Below are positions 2,183-14,950 of a stretch of DNA of 64,000 nucleotides, piece after piece. Source of the stretch: the human T2T-CHM13v2.0 reference genome, Homo sapiens. Made by a program: the position numbers and the translations under genes. The notes beneath the pieces were generated by a model, which made no database searches, was not told where the DNA came from, and worked only from the letters and a program-made list of their open reading frames with translations. Where the stretch lies: NCBI RefSeq assembly GCF_009914755.1, contig NC_060925.1; one strand, given 5' to 3'. How positions within the stretch are numbered: the first letter of the stretch is position 1; each line of letters begins with the position of its first letter.

Positions 2183-2755
2183 TGAAAACATCCTCAAAAA
2201 ATTTTTAAAAACAGTTAAGGAGGAAAAAGTAAAATTCAACTAGGCTTGTAGGACAATCAATGGTAATCATTAGGCTAGCTTTCCATTGACCCACTTCCTT
2301 ATAGCTGGTCACTGATTACTAGTCCAGGATAACATAATCTTTGTCACTAGAATCTTTGTTCTTTTTCTGTTCTTTAGTTAAAATTTAAGACAATATGAGA
2401 TGACAAACTTTCCATTTGAGTTTCTCCTTTAGGTTCTGCATACTAACAAAACTACTGATGCCAGCCATTCTGAAAGGCTTGACAAGAAACTCAACTTAGG
2501 GAAGAATGTACTTTCCATATCCTGATGATTTCAGCCCCCTTACCCGAATCAATTGATGACCTCAATTTTCCAGCCACTCCCCCTTCAAAGATTCTTGCCC
2601 AGAAAGCTTCAGTGAAATGGGTTTGAGTCTTGAGAATTCTTCTCATGTCCTTGTTTGGTGACCTTGCAATTGGTAAACTCTCTGTTGCAAACTCCACTGT
2701 CTTGGTATATTCTGTTGCTGCACAGCAGGCATACAAACCTTACAATCTTATAAAA
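2183..2755 (+). repeat. ERV 5' LTR
   Basis: Aligns by eye with 11934-12779 (aaaattcaacta, agctttccatt, agctggtca.tgattacta, gagtttctcctttaggttctgcata); followed by the PBS remnant. Confidence 0.88.
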
Positions 2756-2768
2756 ATTCATGGCAAGC

Positions 2769-3112
<344 letters not shown>

Positions 3113-3294
3113 TTACCTACAGTCCAGTGCCCCCATGCCACTGGGGCTGACCCAGAGAGAAGCTCAAGAAGCTGCTTAGTTATGATGAACTAAGGGCCTT
3201 AGCTGGGGCCTTCTGTGTTGGCAGGGCAGTGCTGACTTTCAGCACACAACCTTGTCTGCAGCAGAGAAACCATTTCTGGTCTCAGAAGAAGTCT

Positions 3295-3303
3295 CAGGTG
3301 AGT
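3295..3303 (+). promoter_or_regulatory. Consensus 5' splice site CAG|GTGAGT, probably the proviral major splice donor
   Basis: Near-perfect U1 match located between the PBS and gag. Confidence 0.55.
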
Positions 3304-3716
3304 TTTCTCAGAGCAGCTGGCACCCCATTTCCTTCTGTGTGTGTGTGCCTGTTTTCGTCTTAGAGGTCTTGTGGCCTCTTTGAGGTCTTGTTGACACTCC
3401 CTAAGTCTAGGTAGGAACTTATTTGAGGAGATCTCCCTTCAGATGGAAAAAGACTAGAGGGCATTGCTTGGGAGAAATGGTCTTGGATTTTGGAATCTGA
3501 AACTTTATATGGAAAGGTCTTTTGTTTGTCTTTGTCTTGTTATATGTATTTATGTTTGTGGAGGGGATCCCTGAAGAAATTACTAGTGGAAGAAATTACT
3601 AACTCAGGGAACTCTTCTTGTTTGGTCAGTCACATTCAGTTAGTCCTGAAGGAGTTGCTAGTGGAATCTCAGCAAGCCTAACTCAGGGTAATCATCTGCT
3701 CTTCAATCTTTCCCAG

Positions 3717-3730
3717 GCTTTACCCTCTGA
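3717..3730 (+). CDS. CFH: FHL-1-specific terminal exon, coding part: (A)GC TTT ACC CTC TGA = Ser-Phe-Thr-Leu-stop
   Basis: Acceptor ctgctcttcaatctttcccag|G; phase 1 like all CFH SCR exons; gives the known FHL-1 C-terminus SFTL; lies in the intron before the SCR8 exon. Confidence 0.93.
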
Positions 3731-3970
3731 ACTTCTGATCGAAGGTCATCCCTCTCCAGCTTGAGTGGATCAAAGATGACAAGGGCCAATGGAACCAAGT
3801 TTGAGTCTTGCCAGGTCAATACTTGGGTCCTGAGTATGGTGACTAGTATCTGTTTTGTTATGTGTGTATTATTCCAGCCAGAATGGGAAATGCTAATTCA
3901 GCTCCTCCAGGCAGCCCAATGGGGCTGGTGGCTTTGAGATTATTAAACTCTTTCTCTGCTGCAAACCCCA
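3731..3970 (+). other. CFH: FHL-1 3' UTR (end approximate)
   Basis: Runs from the TGA to shortly after ATTAAA at 3942-3947; GT-rich element downstream (gtgtattgttctgttgctgtg). Confidence 0.75.
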
Positions 3971-5838
3971 CTGTCTCAGTGTATTGTTCTGTTGCTGTGC
4001 AGCAGGCATACAAATCTGACAATCTTGTAACTATTTGTGGCAAGCCAGGTCGAGGTCACTCTCTTTGAGGGCATTTACTCACTGCCTAGTGCCCCCTTTC
4101 CACTGGGGCAGACCCAGAGACAAACCCTAGCAGCTTACTTAGCTCTCATGAACTAAGGGCTGTCCCTTAGTTCTCCCAAAGTAACCCACAATGCAACCCT
4201 GATGGGCTGCATCTTCCAAAATTGAAAGGCCTTTGTCTATCATTCCATGAAACAAAAAAAGATTATCTTACTTTTTAACATGGCTTAACCTTAATACCCA
4301 CTGGATTTCGGAGAACAGTGGCCACTGCATGGTTCTCATGCTTACAGTACGATCCTGTAGCTAGATTTGTTTTGTAAGAAGGAAGAAGAATGAGATGAAA
4401 TACCCTATGTATAATGTTTTATGTTGCTTTGGAAAAGTACAACAATGTAGAAAAAGGTAAAATCATGATAAAGTAAGAAATTAAAAACTGTTTGGACTGA
4501 TTTACAAGAAAAAGATGATGCTATGATGGTTCAGTTAAAGGAACCTATGACTCACCCCCCTCCACTTTATGGGGGAGCTGCAGCAGCACTACTGGCGCCT
4601 CTCCAGAGTCCCCACCACCAAAAAGTCACAAATCCGGGGCAACAGGTATGATCTCTACTTCTTATAACCCAACAGGGGACTCCATTTAGGCAGGGTGTCA
4701 CTTCTTATACCCAACAGGGAACTCCATTTAGCCGGGGAGTCACTCTGGTTCTGAGAGGCAGTTTCCCCATAACAACTGCTTACAGGAGGTGTTGCTGCCA
4801 CAGGCCAGCCTATAGGATTTATCTTGGTTTATTCTCTGTTCTCCACTTCCAACCTACTTAATTAGAAAAATAATATGCCTATTTATTGAGAAGATCTAAA
4901 GTTTATGGAAGGAACAGGATTGAAAAAAAAAAAAATCCAAAGCATATGAAGAATCTATTCTCCTCTGTATTTGCCACACAGAACCCTACCTGAGCAGGCA
5001 CCCCCAATTTGCTCAATATTTTGTTGACTTCAGAGAAACAAAGAATGGTTTTAGAAAAAGCTAAGGAAAAGGCTGATCTTATTCACACTGACTCTCCCAG
5101 TAATCCAGTAAGGGCAGCTGCTCAGATTGCAGTTCCCACCTCTGACCTGGGATGGAATATAAACACTGGAGATAGATCTAACCTTGAACACTATCAAAAC
5201 TGCATTTTGATCAGCCTCTGCAAGGGAGTGCCCAAGCAAAGGAGCCTCAATAAGGTCCAGGATGGTCAAGCAGAAGCCTAATGAGGGTTGCTTTGGAATT
5301 CTTAGAACAAGTCTTTGAAGCTTTCAGAGAATAAATGGATATTGACCCAGAAGCCCCAGAAAATTTGATGATAGCTAACATGATGTTTATCCAACAAAGT
5401 GCCCCAGATATTCAGAGAAAGTTACAAAACGTAGCTGAGGCATTGGACATGTTTTTGTCTCAATTAGTGAAGATTGTTTTTAATGTATTTACTGATCACA
5501 AGTTTAAAGAGTGGAAAATAAAACACAAGGAATAATGAAAATGGCAAGCTGACTTGTTATCTGTGGCTCTGACCCTAGTAGTCCCTGGACCACAACAAGG
5601 GCCGTCATCAGACACTCCATCTATGGTAGAACCACCTGGGCCCCCAAAAGCCAATAAAAACGGACATCCCATTGCAGGTCCCAACCAGTGTGCTTACTGC
5701 AACAGGGGGGACACTGAATGGAAAATTTCTCATGCCTTACAAAGCCTGATGTTAAACAGTCAGCCTTCTGCCCACCAAATGCCTGGGATAGCTGGGGAGC
5801 TTGAGAGAGATACTAAAGAAAAAGACCAGAAATGGTAG
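3883..5838 (+). pseudogene. ERV gag remnant (MA, CA, NC), with many stops and frameshifts
   Basis: MGNANSAPPGSPMG start; LMGCIFQN..YPLDFGEQWPLHGS (about 4200-4335); QSAPDIQRKLQ; zinc-knuckle remnant NQCAYC. Confidence 0.85.
3942..3947 (+). terminator. Poly(A) signal ATTAAA of FHL-1, within an ectopic LTR R/U5 copy
   Basis: First canonical-type hexamer after the stop; homologous to ATTAAA in the 3' LTR (12689-12694). Confidence 0.75.
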
Positions 5839-6097
5839 CACCCAGGGGCTTCTCCTGACCCAGACAACACCCTCCATATTTCCCACATGGGGCTTGAGAT
5901 CCTGATGATGGTGAGAAATCAGCTTCTGGACTTTCTAGTAGACATGGTGCCATCTATTTGGTGTTAAATATCTGGTGGTCTAAACTTTCCTCAGAAATAA
6001 TGAAGGTGACTGAAATCTCAGAAAAAATGCTGATGAGATCATTCCTCCAAATTTTGGATTGTCAGCTAGAGTAAGATCATTTAAAGCACAGTTTTTT

Positions 6098-6400
6098 GCT
6101 GGGCGCGGTGGCTCACTCCTGTAATGCCAGCACCTTGGGAGGCTGAGATGGGCAGATCACAAGGTCAGGAGATCGAGACCATCCTGGCTAACACAGTGAA
6201 ACCCCGTCTCTGCTAAAAATACAAAAAATTAGTCGGGCATGGTGGTGGGCACCTGTAGTCCCAGCTACTCGGGAGGCTGAGGCAGAAGAACGGCGTGAAT
6301 CGGGGAGGCAGAGCTTGCAAGTGAGCCAAGATCATGCCACTGCACTCCAGCCTGGGGGACAGAGCAAGACTCTGTCAAAAAAAAAAAAAAAAAAAAAAAA
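6098..6400 (+). mobile_element. Alu (AluSc/Y-like)
   Basis: Full dimer with long poly(A) tail. Confidence 0.95.
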
Positions 6401-6461
6401 AGACAGAGTTTTTCTATACATCCTTGAATGTCCTATCCCTTTGTTGGGGAAAGTCTTCCTT

Positions 6462-6797
6462 TTTTGTTGTTGTTTTGTTTTGTTTTGTTTTGAGACAGAG
6501 TCTTGCCCTATCGCCCAGGCTGGACTGTGGTGGCACGATTGTGGCTCACTGCAACCTCTGGCTCACTGAAACCTCCACCTCACGAGCTAAAGCAATTTTC
6601 CTGTCTCAGCCTCCCGAGTAGCTGGGATTACAGGCGTGTGCCACCACAGCCAGCTAATTTTTATATTTTTAGTAGAGACAGGGTTTCACCATGTTGGCCT
6701 GGCTCGTCTTAAACTCCTGACATGAGGTAATCTGCCCTCCTTGGCCTCCCAAAGTGCTGGGAGCTGGGATTACAGGTGTGAGCCACTGCTCCCGTCC
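6462..6797 (-). mobile_element. Alu, antisense
   Basis: (TTTTG)n tail then tgagacagagtcttgc...gggattacaggtgtgagccactg. Confidence 0.95.
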
Positions 6798-9700
6798 TGT
6801 TAGGGCAGTACTCTTAACCAAACTAAATGCTAAGATTACTTTTTCTCTGAGATGATTGGACATCCAGGTGCCTTCAGACCAAGCATGTGCTCTGCAGGCC
6901 ATATTATTACAACTGGAGATCCTTGAAAGTGCCTGCACCCCTGAAGAGATACTCCAAAAGGTTAGTCCGGAAACATGGGCAGATGGGAGGCCAGGGAAAA
7001 CAAAAACTGCATCTCCAGTACAAGTCAAGTTTTGTGCAGGAGTGGCGCTGCCAAATCTAAAGCAGCGTCCTTTGAGAGAAAAGGCACAGCAATGCATTTA
7101 GCCTCTGCTAATGGCCTTCCTGCAATACAGGAAGAATTCCTTGTTTCTCATGTAACATACCTGTCTTGCCAGGACAAAAACATGGAACTGAGGATTATTG
7201 GTTTGTACAGGATTTGAGGGCTACTAGGCAAATTTTCAAAGCCATTTATCTGGTGATACCTGATGCTTATACATTATTCATGACTTTAACCAGTGAGTTG
7301 TACTGGTGTTCAGTCTTGAATCTGAAGGATGCCTTCATCTGTATTCCCCTGAGTCCAGAGTCCCATGAAGTGTTTGCCTTTGAATAGGAAGACTCTGACA
7401 CTAAAGCTAAATGATAGTATTGCTGGATGATGCTCCATCAAGGCTTCAAAAACTCACTAACCGTCCGGGGGAAATACATGCTAAGGAGTTTTGGGACCTC
7501 CAATTGAAAAATGAGACTTTGCTTATATATGTTGATGGCATATTAGAAGCCAGCACAACTATGGCAAATTGACCAGAATATTATACTGGCTTTACATTTT
7601 TTTTTTTGTCTGGATGGGGATCCAAAGTATCCAAGAAAAAAATCACAAATATTGAAAAACTCAATTATATATTTTAGGTTTGAATTTTCTCAGGAGCAGA
7701 GTAATCTGCTTTCGGACTGGAGAGAAGCTCTTGTCAGGGTGGCCAGACTCAGGACATGGCAGCAGCTGTGAGGGGTTTTTAGGTATGGCTGAATGTTGCC
7801 ATATTTCATTTTCTTATTTTGGGCTTATAGCAAAATGTCTCTATGAAGCCCTAAGACCAGACACTTGACTTCTAGAATGGACAAGGAATGTCAAAAGGCC
7901 TTTCTAACCATTAAGTAAAAATTACTAATGGATCTGGCTACTGAGACCCCCTGAACTAAGAAAGCCATTTGATTTGTTCAAACATGAGAGAGAAGGGATG
8001 GGTTTAGGAGTAGTAACCCAAGACTTGGGGAATATCATGAGGCCTGTAGCCTACTTTTCAAAACAGCTGGACATTGTTATGATGGGTTGGACTTCTTATC
8101 TCTGAGCCACTGGCACCACTTGTGATCTTCTCCAGGAGGCAGAAGAGTTCACTTTGGGTTAACCTAGCACTGTACACACCCCACACTGTGTATGCTATTT
8201 GTTGGAACAGAAGTGGAGCTACTGACTTACCTCTAGAAGACTGAATAGGTATCAGGTCATCCTCCTGGATAATCCTAGTGTTACTTTGAGAGCTGTTTCT
8301 GCTTTAAATCCTGCTAAATAAACCTATACATGATTGCATATAAATTACTGAGCAAGTGTGTTCTATTCAACCAGACATGACCAAAATTCCCTTTAAAAAC
8401 CTGGACTTAAAAATATTCACTGAGGAAAGCAGCTTTATGCACCACCGACAACAGAAGGCTGAGTATGCTATTGTAACCCTGTGACAGATCCTAGATGCAG
8501 AGACACTCCCTCTGGGTTCATCGGCACAGAAGGCAGAACTTAGAGTCCTAATCAGGGCATCCCAACTAGGTAAAGACTCCTGAGTCACCGATTACTCTGA
8601 TTCCAGGTATGTTTTTATTGTTATCCATGCTCATGGGGCCGTTTGGAAAGAAAGCGGGCTCTTAACCTTTGATGATTAAAAAAGAAAAACAATTAAGCAT
8701 GCTAAAGAAATCTTAGCCTGACTAAAGGCAGTCTTGGTACCCAAGAAAGTAGCTATAATACACTACCATGGACATCAGTGGATGGACAATTTGGTAGCAA
8801 GAAAAAAAAAATCACTAGGCAGAGCAGGCCACTAAAGGGGTGAACAGAGAAAAAAATGCCCAAAGCCTTCCTAATGCCATTAATCCCTGAAATAAACTTC
8901 AGCCTAAAATCCCTACCTAATGGAAGAAGATGTAAAGAGAGAATTCAATTGAGACTTTGACTCCAATCAAAGAACTCAAAATGAGTGGATATGTGACACG
9001 GAAGAAAAGGTTCTGGTGCCCAAGTATCTTGTGACAGATATCATCAAACACATACATGATACCACACAGTATGGCAGGCATGCCACCCTTCAATTGATCC
9101 AGGACTATGTCTTTGGGACACACTTAAAGAAGACTATCCAAAAAATAATTTAAAAATACCTACTTGGTGCCCAGAACAATCTTAAGACTGGTCCTCCACC
9201 CCCAGTACCAAGGATTCAAGCAAGAGGTGCAGGGCTATTAGAGGACTGGCAAATTGATTTTACCGTGATGCCAAGGGTAGCAGGAAATTTTAAATACTTG
9301 CTTGTATTTTTAGATACATTTTCAAGATAAACAAAATCATTCCGCTGCAAGACCAAGAGAATGTCTGAGGTTATGAGAGCCTTGGTAGAGAAGATTACCC
9401 TCAGGTTTAGGTGGCCTGTCTCCATCCAGTGTGACCATAGTGCAATTTCTGTAGCCTAGGACACCATATATTCCAGGCCCTCAGCATAATCTGGAATCTT
9501 CATACAGCCTGCAGACTGAAGTCTACTGAAAAAACTCAAAAGATAAATCATACTATATAAAACAAAACAAATTTTAGCTAAGATTTGCCAAGAAACTAAC
9601 AACCTGGAATAACATTCTGTCCATTGCCCTGCTCAGAGTAAGGGTGGTCCCTAAAAGTGGGCTTAAATTAAGCCCTTTAAAAATTTTACATGGGAGATCA

Positions 9701-10449
9701 TTCTTCCGTTACCTTCTCAGACTAAGGAATGCCAATAACATACACATAAATAAATTAGATATTATCAAATATACACAATCTTTAGGTTGTACTTTAACTA
9801 CTATTCACGAGTTTGTGGTTCCAGCAGATTGTGGTATCCAACTGACATTCTCTTTCATCCCATCCAACCCAGAGACTGGGTTCTGCTCAAGACCAGGAAA
9901 AGTCGACATCCTGGGGACCACTTAAAACACAGTGAAAGAGGCCATGCAAAGCATGACTGGTGACCCATTCCTCTGTTCATCTTGAAGGACTTAGACCCTG
10001 GATTCACCACAGCCATATAAAACCCGCCCCGCCAGATTCTTGTCCTATCAAGAAATGTAGAGAGGCCACTTCAACTTCAGAGACTGTCTCAACCCTATCT
10101 GAATGGATAAGTAAATCTTTGATGGGCCTCAAATATCTTTTGAGGAAAAATATCAGATAAGTAACTTTAATGAAATTAGACAAAACATATGTCTTCTTGA
10201 CTACTACAATAGTTACTTTGAGCATAACAGGAATGTTTGTTATTATAATTATTTTATATAAAAAGGTGAGATACCTTCCTGTCTATTCCCTGCCTTACTG
10301 AATGCTTAAGCCATATATTTACTTGGTCATTATAATTGCCTAGATAATTACAATTGCTACCCTTATAGACATTACTTCATAATTGCCTTGGTCAATACAA
10401 TTGTTAGACTTATAGATTTTCTAGACATTATATGCCATGCTAACATAGT

Positions 10450-11760
10450 CTCATGCCACTCATTATGTGGACATTCTAAAATTTAGAAATGGTCACTCTT
10501 GTTTTAAAACTTCTAATTATACCTCTCCTGTTACTACAGTGCCTAGACAGGCATAGCAACACTGTAGTTCAACTGTTTCAAGGTATTGCCACTGGAAGAA
10601 ACTTACCAGAATGATGGATCTGTCAGTAACTCCCCCAAACTATTCAAAATAAGCATTTTCTGTTAGTCATACTTGTCACTGACTTTCTGGATGTTCCAAA
10701 TATGACTACCTATCTGCACCAGCTTCTTTCCATGGCTACTTTCCAGGTCCAAGTAATAGTACACCAAGAAATCACCACCCCATGTGTCAATCTCTCTCTG
10801 CCTATCATAAATGGAAAGTCATTCCATTACATAGGCCCTCCATGGCCCATGGCATACTGGGCAGACAAACGCAGCTAGGAGAAGGGAAATAAAACTAAAA
10901 GTTTCTCCTTACTATGCCAAAAATATTTACAGTGGGGAATATCACACAAATTCTGGGGAGCCTGTAAAAAAAGATCCCTAGTTCAATTCCATTTGTCTAT
11001 ATTCCCCATGAAAAAAATCCATCAATAAATGCACCCTTGAGGGCTTTACCTGTGTGCCCCCTTGGTACATGTTTATTTGTGGCATAGGATCAGACCCTCC
11101 TCTGTTAGGACAAGCCCACTGGTGTCTCAATAACCTGTATATTAAGGGCTCTCACTTACTGAGATACTTCTCAGTCCATCCTAATGACAAAATATTCTGC
11201 CCATTTTCCCACAGACTCCAAAAGGGACTGCCAGGCATATATCAATATATCTGGTGGCAGAGCCTTCTAGGCATCACGAGTCCTAGCTATGGAGTATACA
11301 CTCACTGGGACATGATCAGAAACTTATTGGCAACCACAGAAATAATTGCAAAAGAGGCTGCTAAGAACATTGAGGCTGAGAAAACTCTTCAAATTTACTT
11401 GCCCAGATAGTTCTTGACAACGGAACTACACTTGATTTTCTCTTGGCTTTACAGAGAGGAGTCTGTACAGTGATCAATACCACCTGTTGTACTTATATCA
11501 ATGCTTCTGGTAAAATAAAAACCAAACTAAAGAAAATATTTCAGCAGTCTCGCTGGAGACCATATGTCTCTACCACAGACCCTATGTCTGAATAGTTTTT
11601 TGAGCTTTCCGCCTGCATACTCCATGTTTTCCAGTCCATTTTTCAAGGACTCTTGAAGTTCAAGCTCACAATTCTGTTTATAGGGATTATAATTTACATC
11701 ATTCAATTAAATATTACAATAAAACCATAGACTGAAGTACTAACATGTTCATCCAGCACC
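10450..11760 (+). pseudogene. ERV env remnant (gamma-type); boundaries approximate
   Basis: Decayed CWIC motif (tgatggatctgt near 10612); TM immunosuppressive-like domain and CX6CC: AQIVLDNGTTLDFLLALQRGVCTVINTTCCTYINASG from 11401. Confidence 0.85.
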
Positions 11761-11933
11761 CTAAGCTGGGTATAACAGCTTGCAGGTTGTTACAAGACGG
11801 TTTCATTCCTCTAATCCTGACTCTCTCTCTGTGCCCCGTGTCAGCAAAAAGAAGCTAGAATGGCCATTGCCCAATTCATACCATATTAGCTTTTACACCT
11901 CAGAATTGAGAAGGGATCAAGCCCGGAAGGAAC

Positions 11934-12779
11934 TGAAACTGTCCCTAGGAAAGTTATATAAAATTGATTAAGGGGGAAAAATTCAACTATGATTTCAGGA
12001 AAATCAGCAGTAATCACTAAATCAGCTTTCCATTTGTCCAACTTCTCTGTAGCTGGTCATTGATTACTACCCTAGGATAAAGAAGCCCTTGTCACAAGAC
12101 ATTTTGGTCCTTTTCCTTTCTATAGATAAAATCTAAGACATTGTGAGATGATAATCTTTCTGCATGAGTTTCTCCTTTAGGTTCTGCATATGAAAAAAAA
12201 ACCTAGCAACATACTGGTCAACAAGGCAAAACCTCATTTTCACAAAAAATTAAAAAATTAGCCGGGCATTATGGCACAGGTCTGTAGTACCAGCTGCTCA
12301 GGAGATCTGAGGTGGGAGGACCACTTGAGCCTGGGAGGCAGAAGTTGCAGTGAGCTGTGATCACGCTACTGAAATCCAGATGGGCAACAGAGCAAGATCA
12401 TCTTGCTCAAAAACAAAACACACACACACACACAAACATACACACACAGACACACAAAGACACAAACATCAGCTGGTCTAAAGAGCCCAGCAAAAAGCTG
12501 ACTCAGGAAATAATGCAGGTTCCACATCCTGGTGACTTCATCCCCCTTACCCTGACCAATTGACAACCCAAATTTTCTAGCCCGTCACCCTCCATGATCC
12601 CCTTAAGGTCTCTTGCACATAGCCCCTTCTCAGAACAGATCTGGGGCTTGAGAATCCTCCCAATTCCTTGTTTGGTGCCCTTGTGTTGATTAAAGCCTTT
12701 CTTTGCTGCAAACCCTACTGTCTCCGCGTATTGGTCTATTGCTAAACAGTGGGCATGTGAACCTGATAGTCTTATAACA
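11934..12779 (+). repeat. ERV 3' LTR containing a truncated Alu and (CA)n
   Basis: Starts TGAAAC after a purine-rich tract, ends ...ttataaCA; ATTAAA at 12689-12694. Confidence 0.88.
12205..12465 (+). mobile_element. 5'-truncated old Alu (AluJ/FRAM-like) with CA-repeat tail
   Basis: aaaaattagccgggcatt...gaggtgggaggaccacttgagcctgggagg...; absent from the 5' LTR. Confidence 0.85.
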
Positions 12780-12783
12780 AAAT

Positions 12784-14950
12784 AGAATAGAAGCTATTTA
12801 TAGGATCGATCCATGCATGTGAGTCTATTTCTGGACACCGTTTTCTCTTCTATTCTTCCACGTGTTTGTCCTTTAACCAGTATCATGAGATCCTTTACTC
12901 ACTGTAGCTTTTTTTAAGTCTTAAAATTTGGTAATGTGAGTTTTTCAACTTTTCTTATCTTTTGAAGAATTGTTTAGCTGTTTTAGCCCCTTTACCTTTC
13001 CATATGACTTTAGAATCAGCATGTTCGTATGTGCAAAACATTGTGCTTGGTTATTCACTAGAACTGGGACACATTCACAGATGAATCTGGGGAGAACTGA
13101 TATGTAATAGTATTAAATTTTTCAATCCATGAATATTATATATCCTTTGATTTAGTAAGATCATACAGTCTTACCCTAGTTTTTTTTTATTTTAAGCATA
13201 CAGATCCTGTATTTTACTAGATTTATAACTAAATATTTTGTATTTCATCCATCAACGAAAAATTCAATTTGTTTAATAGACAGAATTTATTAATGCTACC
13301 TAATCCTTCTTGAGAGAGCCATGATAGTTTGTGGCTTCAGTAATTTTTTAATTCATTCAAGTTCTTGAATTTATTGACATGGCATTATTCAGAATATTTT
13401 TTATTTTTCTTTTAATATATGTAAAAACCATAATGATGTCATTTCTGTCATTGCTGTTATAAGCAATTTGTGTTATTTTTTCTGATTTAGTCTGTCTAAA
13501 GGTTTCTCAATTATAGAGATCTAAAATAACAAGCTTTTGGTTTCCTTGTTTATATACATATTTACTTCTTTATTATTTCATCTCTGATCTTTATTGTAGT
13601 ATTTCTTCTGCTTACTTTGAGATTAATTTTTTCTACTTTTACTAATATCTAATGGTAGAGGCTAAGGTTATTGAAGTGGAACACCGTCATTTTCTATCCC
13701 AGGTATTTAGTGACACCAATTTATTTCATACTGCTCTAGTGCCATTCCACAACTTTTGATATATAGTATATCAATCAGTGTTTGGCTGGAGTAGGGTGAG
13801 TATTCCATAAAAGATTTACTGTGATTTTTGGAGGGAGGTGTGAAGAGGGTATTATTACCAAAATGTGGATTTTTTTTTAACTCCATTCTGTATTTTGGCT
13901 AAGAGAAGCAGCTTTGGAACTTCTCAAGTCTGTACATCTGTGAGACCCCAAGGATTACTTGTTTTAATTTTTTTTTAAGTTTAGGTTTGTTTTGGGTCAA
14001 CTTAGTTCTTTCAAGGCTTATTTTTAAGCTTTTAAAAAGCTTAAAAAACCCCAGAGATAGTTTGTTCAGAATATTAAGCTGCTTCTGATGTCTCTACTAC
14101 GTGACCTAGATGTTCAAACGAGTCTTTCTACTCTGATTGATTCCATTTAAATGTCTCCCTGTGTTGTGTGTGTGCTCTGGGAATCCTTTACCTTTTTGTT
14201 CTCTGGTAGTGTTCTTCATCTGATAGGTATCCTTTGTCCATTCTTGGGGAGTTTTGCTCTACTCTCCAGAGGGTCAATATTCAGCCAAATAATCTAGGGA
14301 GTTGCTGTGGAAATTTGTAGAGCCCTTTCACTCCATAGTTTCTTCTTTTCTCACTCTGTTTCCTGCAGATTCTAGTGAACTCATCTTCTTTGGGAACACT
14401 GAGTTTTGTTTCTTCTACTCAGCAAGTGTGGCACTTTCTGCTGAATTCTCCTTCTCCATGCTGCTGTTTGGAAAATTTCTCCCAGCATAAAGTCACTTTG
14501 ATGATGGAACTCATCTCATTGTCACTTTTTCTCTGGAATTAGGTGCTTCCTGCTTTCCAATGTCTGAAAATGTTATTTTCATCTATTTTGTTCCATTTCC
14601 TTATTTGTGGCAAGAACTCTGTTTTACTTGATTATTCTTGCCTGGCCTTTTACCTTTTTAAATTGTCTGTACTGATTGTTTTCTATTTGGTTTCTTCTCA
14701 TATTTGGATTTGTTTCAAAATTTATACTCATGCTGGATTTTGTCTGGTTTCTTTGTTATAATTTATTATAAATAATAATTTATTTTCAGTTTTTATTCTT
14801 TTCTTTTATAGCTATATAATGATAAATTTCCCTCTGAGGATTGTTCGAGTGTCATCTCACCAAGTTTAATTTAATATGTTTTTATTATCATTCAATTCAA
14901 AATATTTAATGTTTCCTCTTCTGATTTTCTCCTTATCCATGAGTTATTTA
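12784..14950 (-). mobile_element. Ancient L1M fragments
   Basis: Degenerate antisense L1 ORF2 motifs; boundaries uncertain. Confidence 0.6.

What the first reader, a model, noticed from the sequence alone, without database searches (positions are those of the whole stretch)
3925..4162. Ectopic third copy of LTR R/U5 + PBS + leader, inserted into the gag start, supplies the FHL-1 poly(A) signal
Seen: 3930-4160 (attaaactc..gcaaaccccactgtctcagtgtattgttctgttgctg..agcaggcatacaaa..tggcaagcca..cactggggcagacccagaga..tgaactaagggc) is a diverged copy of 2660-2768 joined to 3095-3197, without the Alu. It splits the gag matrix N-terminus: MGNANSAPPGSPMG ends near 3924 and ..LMGCIFQN resumes near 4200. 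This copy keeps ATTAAA (3942-3947), whereas the true 5' LTR has GGTAAA (2672-2677). Inference: a template switch during reverse transcription, or a later rearrangement, placed a retroviral polyadenylation cassette about 210 nt after a cryptic acceptor, giving a complete terminal exon.
Basis: partly seen in the sequence, partly recalled or inferred. Interest (0 to 1): 0.82.

Follow-up and report, generated by a model that had tools for sequence, protein, structure and literature searches.

The report
ERV-derived terminal exon of FHL-1
The exon that turns complement factor H into its short form FHL-1 lies entirely inside an ancient retrovirus remnant, and its poly(A) site comes from an extra, misplaced copy of the virus's own terminator inside the gag gene.

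Summary
A gamma-like ERV provirus (2183-12779, + strand, perfect 4-bp target duplication AAAT) sits in CFH intron 9. About 40 nt into gag it carries roughly 275 extra bases. They are a third copy of its own 5' end: the last 105 nt of the LTR (3928-4032), a 5-nt spacer, an intact 18-nt PBS (4038-4055) and about 120 nt of leader. Six other genomic copies of the family have gag uninterrupted at this point. Only the CFH locus and its segmental-duplication paralog carry the insert.

The ATTAAA at 3942-3947 is the family's native LTR poly(A) signal (14 of 18 family LTRs have A[AT]TAAA in that column). It is the first such hexamer in the provirus. The RefSeq FHL-1 exon (3717-3965) ends 18 nt after it.

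The acceptor and the TGA stop are also ancestral ERV leader sequence. The exon 9 donor phase gives SFTL-stop.

The copy is about as diverged as the two LTRs are from each other, so it arose at or soon after integration. I could not separate a reverse-transcriptase template switch from early DNA repair.

Nine literature searches found no paper that links FHL-1 to an ERV.

The parts
2183..12779 (+). Degraded gamma-like (class I) ERV provirus in CFH intron 9, same sense as CFH. Flanked by the 4-bp target duplication AAAT (2179-2182 and 12780-12783).
   Evidence: LTR ends were defined against 10 family LTRs and 18 LTR tails. The target duplication was read. Gag_p30 is at 5335-5535, integrase at 8953-9330 and TLV_coat at 11380-11595. 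The env TM piece is nearest to syncytin-2 and syncytin-1.
2183..2755 (+). 5' LTR. The poly(A) hexamer column reads GGTAAA (2672-2677). CCAAT-like box around 2550, TATA-like box around 2584.
2756..3716 (+). 5-nt spacer, PBS and leader of the provirus. The PBS is broken by an Alu (2769-3078) and lacks 11 nt compared with the third copy. A donor-like CAG|GTGAGT lies near 3294-3302.
3678..3716 (+). 3' splice site of the FHL-1 exon: CTAAC branch-point motif 3678-3682, pyrimidine tract, CAG 3714-3716. It is ERV leader sequence.
   Evidence: CAG is present in 10 of 11 aligned rows, which is 8 of 9 other family copies plus CFH and the paralog.
3717..3965 (+). FHL-1 terminal exon (RefSeq alternative exon). 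The coding part 3717-3730 reads GC TTT ACC CTC TGA. The rest is 3' UTR made of ERV leader, the first 14 gag codons (3883-3924) and the start of the ectopic LTR tail.
   Evidence: Hub annotation gives the exon. Exon 9 ends ..CGT GTC A|gtaagt at L033:2580, so A|GC TTT ACC CTC TGA reads SFTL-stop. The TG of the stop is invariant in 11 of 11 rows.
3928..4032 (+). Ectopic LTR tail (3' part of R plus U5, no U3). ATTAAA 3942-3947, annotated cleavage at 3965, GU-rich stretch 3970-3999.
   Evidence: In the same column, 13 of 18 family LTRs have ATTAAA and 1 of 18 has AATAAA.
4033..4055 (+). Ectopic spacer (4033-4037) and intact 18-nt PBS (4038-4055).
4056..4177 (+). Ectopic copy of the first 120 nt or so of the leader. 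4178-4192 is junction sequence that I could not assign.
4193..4222 (+). gag resumes. 4193-4209 repeats the gag segment 3911-3927 imperfectly, giving a flanking direct repeat.
11934..12779 (+). 3' LTR, with an Alu-like fragment and a CA-rich run inserted around 12200-12470. ATTAAA at 12689-12694.

Best explanation
What it is. An old gamma-like ERV integrated in sense orientation in CFH intron 9. About 40 nt into gag it carries an extra copy of its own 5' end: the 3' part of R, U5, a spacer, the PBS and about 120 nt of leader.

How it works. CFH pre-mRNA can splice from the exon 9 donor, 11.1 kb upstream, to a 3' splice site that belongs to the ERV leader (3716/3717). It then reads four codons and a stop (SFTL-TGA). 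The rest of the leader and the first 14 gag codons serve as 3' UTR. The transcript is cleaved at about 3965, 18 nt after the ATTAAA of the ectopic LTR tail, with the U5 GU-rich stretch just downstream. The fragment thus does what R/U5 does in a 3' LTR. Having no U3, it brings no promoter. The whole FHL-1-specific exon (acceptor, stop, UTR, poly(A) site) is ERV sequence.

Shown: the homology, the private insertion, the native status of the hexamer, the reading frame, and the fit to the annotated exon end.

Inferred: the extra copy arose at or very soon after integration. I favour two non-homologous template switches of reverse transcriptase during minus-strand synthesis (gag to leader of the co-packaged RNA, then from within R back to gag), at about 50%. 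That leaves the short gag repeat on both sides.
For: Homology: (E 2e-21 and 3e-19 locally; 7e-17 and 1.1e-14 genome-wide).

Private insertion: only 2 of 47 matches span the whole 601-nt query (the locus itself and the paralog). Six other loci match both flanks abutting. In one search, 5 of 5 family copies lack the insert.

Same viral lineage: of 9 positions where the third copy has a state rare in the family (at most 4 of 18), 4 are shared with both LTRs of this provirus. These include 4019 A (0 of 18 family copies) and 4025 T (2 of 18). The nearest leader matches in the genome are this provirus's own leader and the paralog's.

Native poly(A) signal: 14 of 18 family LTRs have A[AT]TAAA in that column. 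It is the first such hexamer from 2183 onward. The RefSeq exon ends 18 nt after it (hub annotation).

Frame: exon 9 ends in phase 1 with A, giving SFTL-stop. This matches the published tail (passages of PMC7593401).

Age: third copy against 5' copy is 78 of 96 (tail) plus 85 of 116 (leader). The LTR pair is 77% over 222 nt and 68% over 282 nt. The insert lacks the Alu and keeps the 11 PBS bases that the 5' copy has lost, in both CFH and the paralog.

Single provirus: perfect 4-bp target duplication.
Against: I saw no 3'-end sequencing data. The cleavage site rests on the RefSeq exon end supplied with the finding.

Necessity is not shown. Another ATTAAA lies at 4480.

There is no sign of constraint on the exon or the poly(A) region against the paralog. 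CFH-derived versus paralog-derived changes are 11 versus 12 in 3717-3927. The 95% identity of the ectopic LTR tail to the paralog's is reached by 11% of 105-nt windows across the provirus.

Against the reverse-transcriptase origin specifically:
- The copy starts about 40-50 nt after the inferred start of R, not at an RNA end (inference).
- Two rare states (3987 T, 0 of 18 family copies; 3969 C at a CpG) are shared with the 5' LTR only and none with the 3' LTR only. This fits a DNA-level copy made shortly after integration.
Confidence: 0.88

Rival explanations
1. Same anatomy and same function, but the extra copy was made on host DNA, not during reverse transcription. This would be a templated insertion during break repair or replication template switching, copying about 250 nt from 1.2 kb upstream into gag early after integration.
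For: Two rare states are shared by the third copy and the 5' LTR only (3987 T, 3969 C) and none with the 3' LTR only. The copy does not start at the inferred RNA 5' end. Imperfect microhomology and a short flanking repeat fit this as well as they fit a reverse-transcriptase switch.
Against: The third copy is as diverged from the 5' copy (160 of 207, 77%) as the LTRs are from each other (363 of 504, 72%). That leaves only a narrow early time window. One of the two shared sites is a CpG.
Confidence: 0.4
2. A second provirus of the same family integrated into gag of the first and was then reduced by deletions to a piece of R-U5-PBS-leader.
For: The ectopic LTR tail is 85-89% identical to several other family LTRs. 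That is closer than its identity to its own 5' LTR (78-83%).
Against: It needs two independent deletions that leave gag intact on both sides with a 17-nt repeat instead of a 4-bp target duplication. The third copy carries the private states of this provirus's own LTRs. Its nearness to other copies is explained by the heavier decay of the 5' and 3' LTR tails: mean identity to 18 family tails is 78.5% for the third copy against 71.7% and 71.1% for the two LTRs.
Confidence: 0.03
3. The FHL-1 3' end is set by signals other than the ectopic ATTAAA, so the LTR fragment is a bystander.
For: I examined no direct 3'-end data here. No constraint signal was seen against the paralog.
Against: No other A[AT]TAAA exists between 2183 and 4479. 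The annotated end is 18 nt after the hexamer, at a CA followed by a GU-rich stretch. That is the homologous position of the family's own R/U5 border region.
Confidence: 0.05

Closest known systems
Transposon-derived alternative terminal exons that give truncated immune proteins, for example the Alu-derived last exon of IFNAR2-S (passages of the review PMC13709765)
   Same: An intronic repeat supplies a 3' splice site, an early stop and a poly(A) site. The gene then makes a shorter protein with its own function, restricted to the lineage that has the repeat.
   Different: Here the donor is an ERV provirus, not an Alu. The acceptor and stop come from the viral leader. The poly(A) site comes from an LTR fragment in an abnormal place inside gag. 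Factor H and FHL-1 do not occur in the main text of that review (0 occurrences).
LTR-supplied terminal exon and poly(A) signal in a host gene, such as the short leptin receptor form with a HERV-K LTR
   Same: The native R/U5 poly(A) signal of an LTR ends a host transcript and creates a C-terminal variant.
   Different: In the usual cases a solo LTR or a regular 5' or 3' LTR is used. Here neither regular LTR is used. The 5' LTR column reads GGTAAA and the 3' LTR lies 9 kb downstream. A U3-less internal duplicate is used instead.
Normal 3' LTR polyadenylation of gamma-type retroviruses (established knowledge)
   Same: Hexamer in R, cleavage at a CA about 18 nt later, GU-rich U5 downstream. The hexamer column is conserved in 14 of 18 family LTRs.
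   Different: The cassette sits inside gag, 225 nt after a leader acceptor, so it ends a host mRNA and not a viral one.
Duplications and insertions made by reverse-transcriptase template switching in retroviral vectors
   Same: An insert copied from elsewhere in the same genome, short imperfect homology at the junctions and a short flanking repeat.
   Different: This cannot be shown for a fossil. The copy does not begin at the inferred RNA end, and a DNA-level origin fits nearly as well.

Membership tests
Class I (gamma-like) ERV provirus | Two LTRs in the same orientation, flanked by a short target duplication | tested here: met
   LTRs at 2183-2755 and 11934-12779. AAAT on both sides.
Class I (gamma-like) ERV provirus | PBS starting TGG a few bases after the 5' LTR | tested here: met
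   TGG at 2761 after a 5-nt spacer, and an intact 18-nt version at 4038-4055. I did not determine which tRNA it fits.
Class I (gamma-like) ERV provirus | gag-pol-env order with gamma-type domains | tested here: met
   Gag_p30 (E 3.7e-6, 27.0 bits, just under the 27.4-bit cut-off), Integrase_H2C2 (4.4e-6), rve (1.3e-4, below cut-off) and TLV_coat (4.8e-7), in that order. The TM piece matches syncytin-2 at E 8.5e-9. Six of the 10 ORF pieces sent gave no Pfam match.
Class I (gamma-like) ERV provirus | Polypurine tract directly before the 3' LTR | tested here: inconclusive
   Only a short purine run (GGAAGGAA, 11925-11932) precedes 11934.
Transposon-derived alternative terminal exon | The exon lies within the repeat and has a branch point, pyrimidine tract and AG | tested here: met
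   3717-3965 lies inside the provirus. CTAAC at 3678-3682, CAG at 3714-3716.
Transposon-derived alternative terminal exon | In-frame stop after splicing from the upstream exon | tested here: met
   The exon 9 donor is in phase 1 with A, so AGC TTT ACC CTC TGA.
Transposon-derived alternative terminal exon | Poly(A) hexamer 10-30 nt before the mRNA end, with a GU-rich element after it | tested here: met
   ATTAAA at 3942-3947, annotated end at 3965, GU-rich 3970-3999 (hub annotation).
Transposon-derived alternative terminal exon | Transcript and 3'-end evidence | not testable with these tools
   I have only the RefSeq exon supplied with the finding, plus the published existence of FHL-1.
Product of reverse-transcriptase template switching | The insert is copied from the same genome and is absent from relatives | tested here: met
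Product of reverse-transcriptase template switching | Same age as the integration | tested here: inconclusive
   77% (third against 5' copy) versus 72% (LTR against LTR). Two sites are shared with the 5' LTR only.
Product of reverse-transcriptase template switching | The copy ends at the 5' end of the RNA (start of R) | tested here: inconclusive
   The copy starts about 40-50 nt after the start site inferred from the CCAAT and TATA-like boxes. The start site itself is not known.

The most novel reading that the evidence does not exclude
FHL-1, the main complement regulator of Bruch's membrane, exists only because a retrovirus with a replication-error duplicate of its own terminator landed in CFH intron 9. 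The acceptor, stop, UTR and poly(A) site are all viral. This would explain why rodents have no FHL-1. After the CFH/CFHR duplication the four tail codons were then reshaped by a burst of five substitutions (3717-3726), possibly under selection for the SFTL tail.
Probability: 0.3. Interest if true: 0.7.

Novelty: new member of a known kind. Interest (0 to 1): 0.55.

Why it matters
FHL-1 is a medically important isoform. Reviews call it the predominant regulator in Bruch's membrane, and the Y402H risk variant for macular degeneration lies in it (passages). The same reviews note that mice have no FHL-1 and give no reason.

An ERV origin for the whole FHL-1-specific exon gives a concrete, testable reason: no provirus, no isoform. 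It also defines the exact cis elements that set the FH:FHL-1 ratio, namely the leader acceptor, the ATTAAA and the U5 GU-rich stretch. That ratio is a quantity of therapeutic interest.

It also adds a clean case in which an internal, promoter-less LTR fragment, not a regular LTR, was co-opted as a host terminator.

Tried and rejected
Constraint tests against the paralog, all negative or not unusual.
- Relative-rate counts were polarised by family copies. In 3400-3716, 7 changes were CFH-derived and 15 paralog-derived (3 ambiguous). In 3717-3927 the counts were 11 and 12 (8 ambiguous).
- In the ectopic LTR tail, 1 change was CFH-derived and 2 paralog-derived, plus the paralog's 2-nt gap in the hexamer.
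- The high identity of that tail (95% with gaps counted) is reached by 11% of 12,329 sliding windows and by 11 of 117 non-overlapping windows.

The idea that the copy starts at the cap site of the viral RNA is not supported by the position of the promoter boxes.

A nested second provirus is rejected (see rivals).

Naming the ERV family failed. No repeat library is on hand. Pfam and PDB only place it among gamma-type ERVs.

I did not determine which tRNA the PBS fits.

Literature. Nine searches combined FHL-1, CFH or factor H with retrovirus, LTR, HERV, transposable element, retroelement, retrotransposon, exonization or polyadenylation. One search was a background search on FHL-1, SFTL and primates. 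None returned a paper that links the FHL-1 exon to an ERV. I read passages only from PMC10894998, PMC2008291, PMC7593401, PMC5786067, PMC13709765 and PMC13509723. Subscription papers, such as the 2000 genomic description of the factor H gene (recalled, not seen), genome-wide supplementary tables of transposon-derived poly(A) sites, and RepeatMasker tracks were not visible. They may already list this overlap.

Full report
THE OBSERVATION

The repeat finder links 2679-2768, 3953-4045 and 12700-12792, and also 3095-3173 with 4057-4135. BLAST of 3600-4400 against the locus gives two matches:
- 3926-4045 to the 5' LTR tail, 77.5% over 120 nt, E 2e-21.
- 4057-4160 to the leader 3095-3197, 78.8% over 104 nt, E 3e-19.

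In a search of the whole 3.1-Gb assembly with 3926-4200 the same two matches score E 7e-17 and 1.1e-14. Three-way and pairwise alignments show that the copy runs colinearly through LTR tail, spacer, PBS and leader. It lacks the Alu (2769-3078, 16-nt target duplication) that splits the 5' PBS. In addition there is ATTAAA at 12689-12694 in the 3' LTR.

THE HOST ELEMENT

Aligning 10 family LTRs found elsewhere in the genome puts the LTR start at TGAAAC. Eighteen LTR tails put its end at ..TAACA. This gives a 5' LTR at 2183-2755 and a 3' LTR at 11934-12779. Both are flanked by a perfect 4-bp repeat AAAT (2179-2182 and 12780-12783), so this was one integration event.

Between the LTRs the frames are badly broken. 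Four of 10 ORF pieces still match Pfam, in the order gag, pol, env:
- Gag_p30, 5335-5535
- Integrase_H2C2 and rve, 8953-9330
- TLV_coat, 11380-11595

The env piece is nearest to syncytin-2 and syncytin-1 among solved structures. This is a gamma-like class I ERV in the same sense as CFH. I could not name the family because no repeat library was available.

The two LTRs are 77% (222 nt) and 68% (282 nt) identical, so the element is very old.

THE INSERT IS PRIVATE TO THIS LOCUS

A genome search with 3700-4300 returned 47 matches from 40 scored candidates. Only the locus itself and one other place match the whole query. That place is C1:196129414-196130017, at 89% identity. Six other loci match the left flank (to about 3916-3927) and the right flank (from about 4191-4203) directly abutting.

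In the alignment, 5 of 5 family copies lack the insert, while the 89% copy has it. That copy is the segmental-duplication paralog. The whole provirus is duplicated there at 89.5% identity over 12,747 aligned positions (window-equivalent 82,186-95,770, inside the pseudogene LOC100996886).

The insert therefore predates the CFH/CFHR duplication. It also predates the Alu and the loss of 11 PBS bases in the 5' copy, both of which the paralog shares.

ANATOMY OF THE INSERT

- LTR tail: 3928-4032
- Spacer: 4033-4037
- Intact 18-nt PBS: 4038-4055
- Leader: 4056 to about 4177. The stretch after 4160 still resembles the leaders of two other family proviruses.

The junctions cannot be placed to the base, because donor and acceptor sequences are imperfectly similar there. 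The left junction lies within 3917-3928 and the right within 4178-4192. A 17-nt piece of gag appears on both sides (3911-3927 and 4193-4209).

The family LTR has a CCAAT box and a TATA-like A-rich box about 115 and 80 nt before the hexamer. By the usual spacing, R would start about 40-50 nt before the point where the third copy begins. The copy therefore probably holds only the 3' part of R. This is an inference; the start site is unknown.

SOURCE AND AGE OF THE COPY

The third copy has a state that is rare in the family (at most 4 of 18 LTRs) at 9 positions:
- 4 are shared with both LTRs of this provirus. These include 4019 A (0 of 18 family copies) and 4025 T (2 of 18).
- 2 are shared with the 5' LTR only: 3987 T (0 of 18) and 3969 C (a CpG).
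- None is shared with the 3' LTR only.
- 3 are private to the third copy.

The copy therefore came from this provirus or from its own viral lineage.

Identities:
- Third copy against 5' tail: 78 of 96
- Third copy against 3' tail: 79 of 105
- 5' tail against 3' tail: 68 of 96
- Third copy's leader against the 5' leader: 85 of 116

Pooled, the third copy is 77% identical to its source, against 72% for the LTR pair. The duplication is therefore about as old as the integration. A copy made halfway through the element's residence should be near 86% identical.

I cannot separate a double template switch of reverse transcriptase from an early templated repair event on host DNA. The age and the flanking repeat fit both. 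The two sites shared with the 5' LTR only, and the start inside R, lean slightly to the DNA event. The narrow time window leans to reverse transcription. I put them at about 50% and 40%.

WHAT IT DOES

Exon 9 of CFH lies 7.4 kb before the window. It ends ..CGT GTC A followed by gtaagt (L033:2580). Joined to 3717 this reads AGC TTT ACC CTC TGA, which is SFTL-stop. That is the published FHL-1 tail (passages of PMC7593401).

The 3' splice site is ERV leader sequence: CTAAC 3678-3682, a pyrimidine tract, and CAG 3714-3716. CAG is present in 8 of 9 other family copies, and the TG of the stop is invariant in 11 of 11 rows.

The ATTAAA at 3942-3947 is the family's native poly(A) signal. In the same column, 13 of 18 family LTRs have ATTAAA and 1 has AATAAA. 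It is the first A[AT]TAAA in the provirus from 2183 on, and the next is at 4480.

The RefSeq alternative exon given with the finding ends at 3965. That is 18 nt after the hexamer, at a CA, and the U5 GU-rich stretch 3970-3999 follows.

So the acceptor, stop, 3' UTR and terminator of FHL-1 are all viral. The terminator comes from the misplaced copy, not from a regular LTR.

TESTS THAT DID NOT SUPPORT MORE

I found no sign that the exon or its poly(A) region evolves more slowly in CFH than in the paralog. The high identity of the ectopic LTR tail between the two is within the normal spread. Necessity of this hexamer is not shown.

A SIDE OBSERVATION

Five of the 18 CFH-lineage changes in 3400-3927 fall in 3717-3726. 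These are the first exon base and the four tail codons. Under uniform scatter, a cluster that dense in any 10-nt window has P = 0.002 (20,000 permutations). One paper reports that the SFTL tail matters for pentraxin-3 binding (passages of PMC5786067).

NOVELTY

Nine full-text searches found no paper that ties the FHL-1 exon to a retrovirus, LTR or transposon. A 2026 review of transposon-derived immune isoforms does not contain 'factor H'. Reviews state that mice lack FHL-1 without giving a cause.

The kind of event is well known: a repeat supplies an alternative last exon and a terminator. I therefore file this as a new member of a known kind, with an unusual source for the terminator. Repeat annotation tracks, supplementary tables of genome-wide surveys and subscription papers were not visible to me and may already show the overlap.

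Noticed in passing
window 3717-3734: A cluster of CFH-lineage substitutions at the very start of the FHL-1 exon. Five fall in 3717-3726 (the +1 base of the acceptor and the SFTL codons) and a sixth at 3734. The paralog keeps the state of the ERV family. Permutation gives P = 0.002.
   Followed up: partly
L031/L032 (C1:196126186-196139770, window-equivalent 82,186-95,770); third copy at L002:1732-2014: The whole provirus, with the Alu in the PBS and the ectopic copy, is duplicated in the CFHR region at 89.5% identity. There the hexamer column has a 2-nt gap (ATT--A).
   Followed up: partly
window 2753-3094: An Alu of the S type (judged by eye) is inserted into the PBS of the 5' copy, with a 16-nt target duplication. 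The 5' PBS also lacks 11 nt that the ectopic PBS keeps. Both features are shared with the paralog.
   Followed up: partly
window 3294-3302 and 3714-3716: A consensus-like donor CAG|GTGAGT in the leader and the family-conserved acceptor 420 nt later could mark a leader intron of the virus itself. I did not test this.
   Followed up: no
window 12200-12470: The 3' LTR is interrupted by an Alu-like fragment followed by a CA-rich run.
   Followed up: no
window 4667-4744: A tandem pair of 36-nt units, 42 nt apart and 89% identical, in the gag region after the insert (family D15).
   Followed up: no
window 6093-6294 and 6460-6796: Two Alu-like elements in opposite orientation inside the provirus form long inverted repeats (I3, I4, I7, I8).
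   Followed up: no
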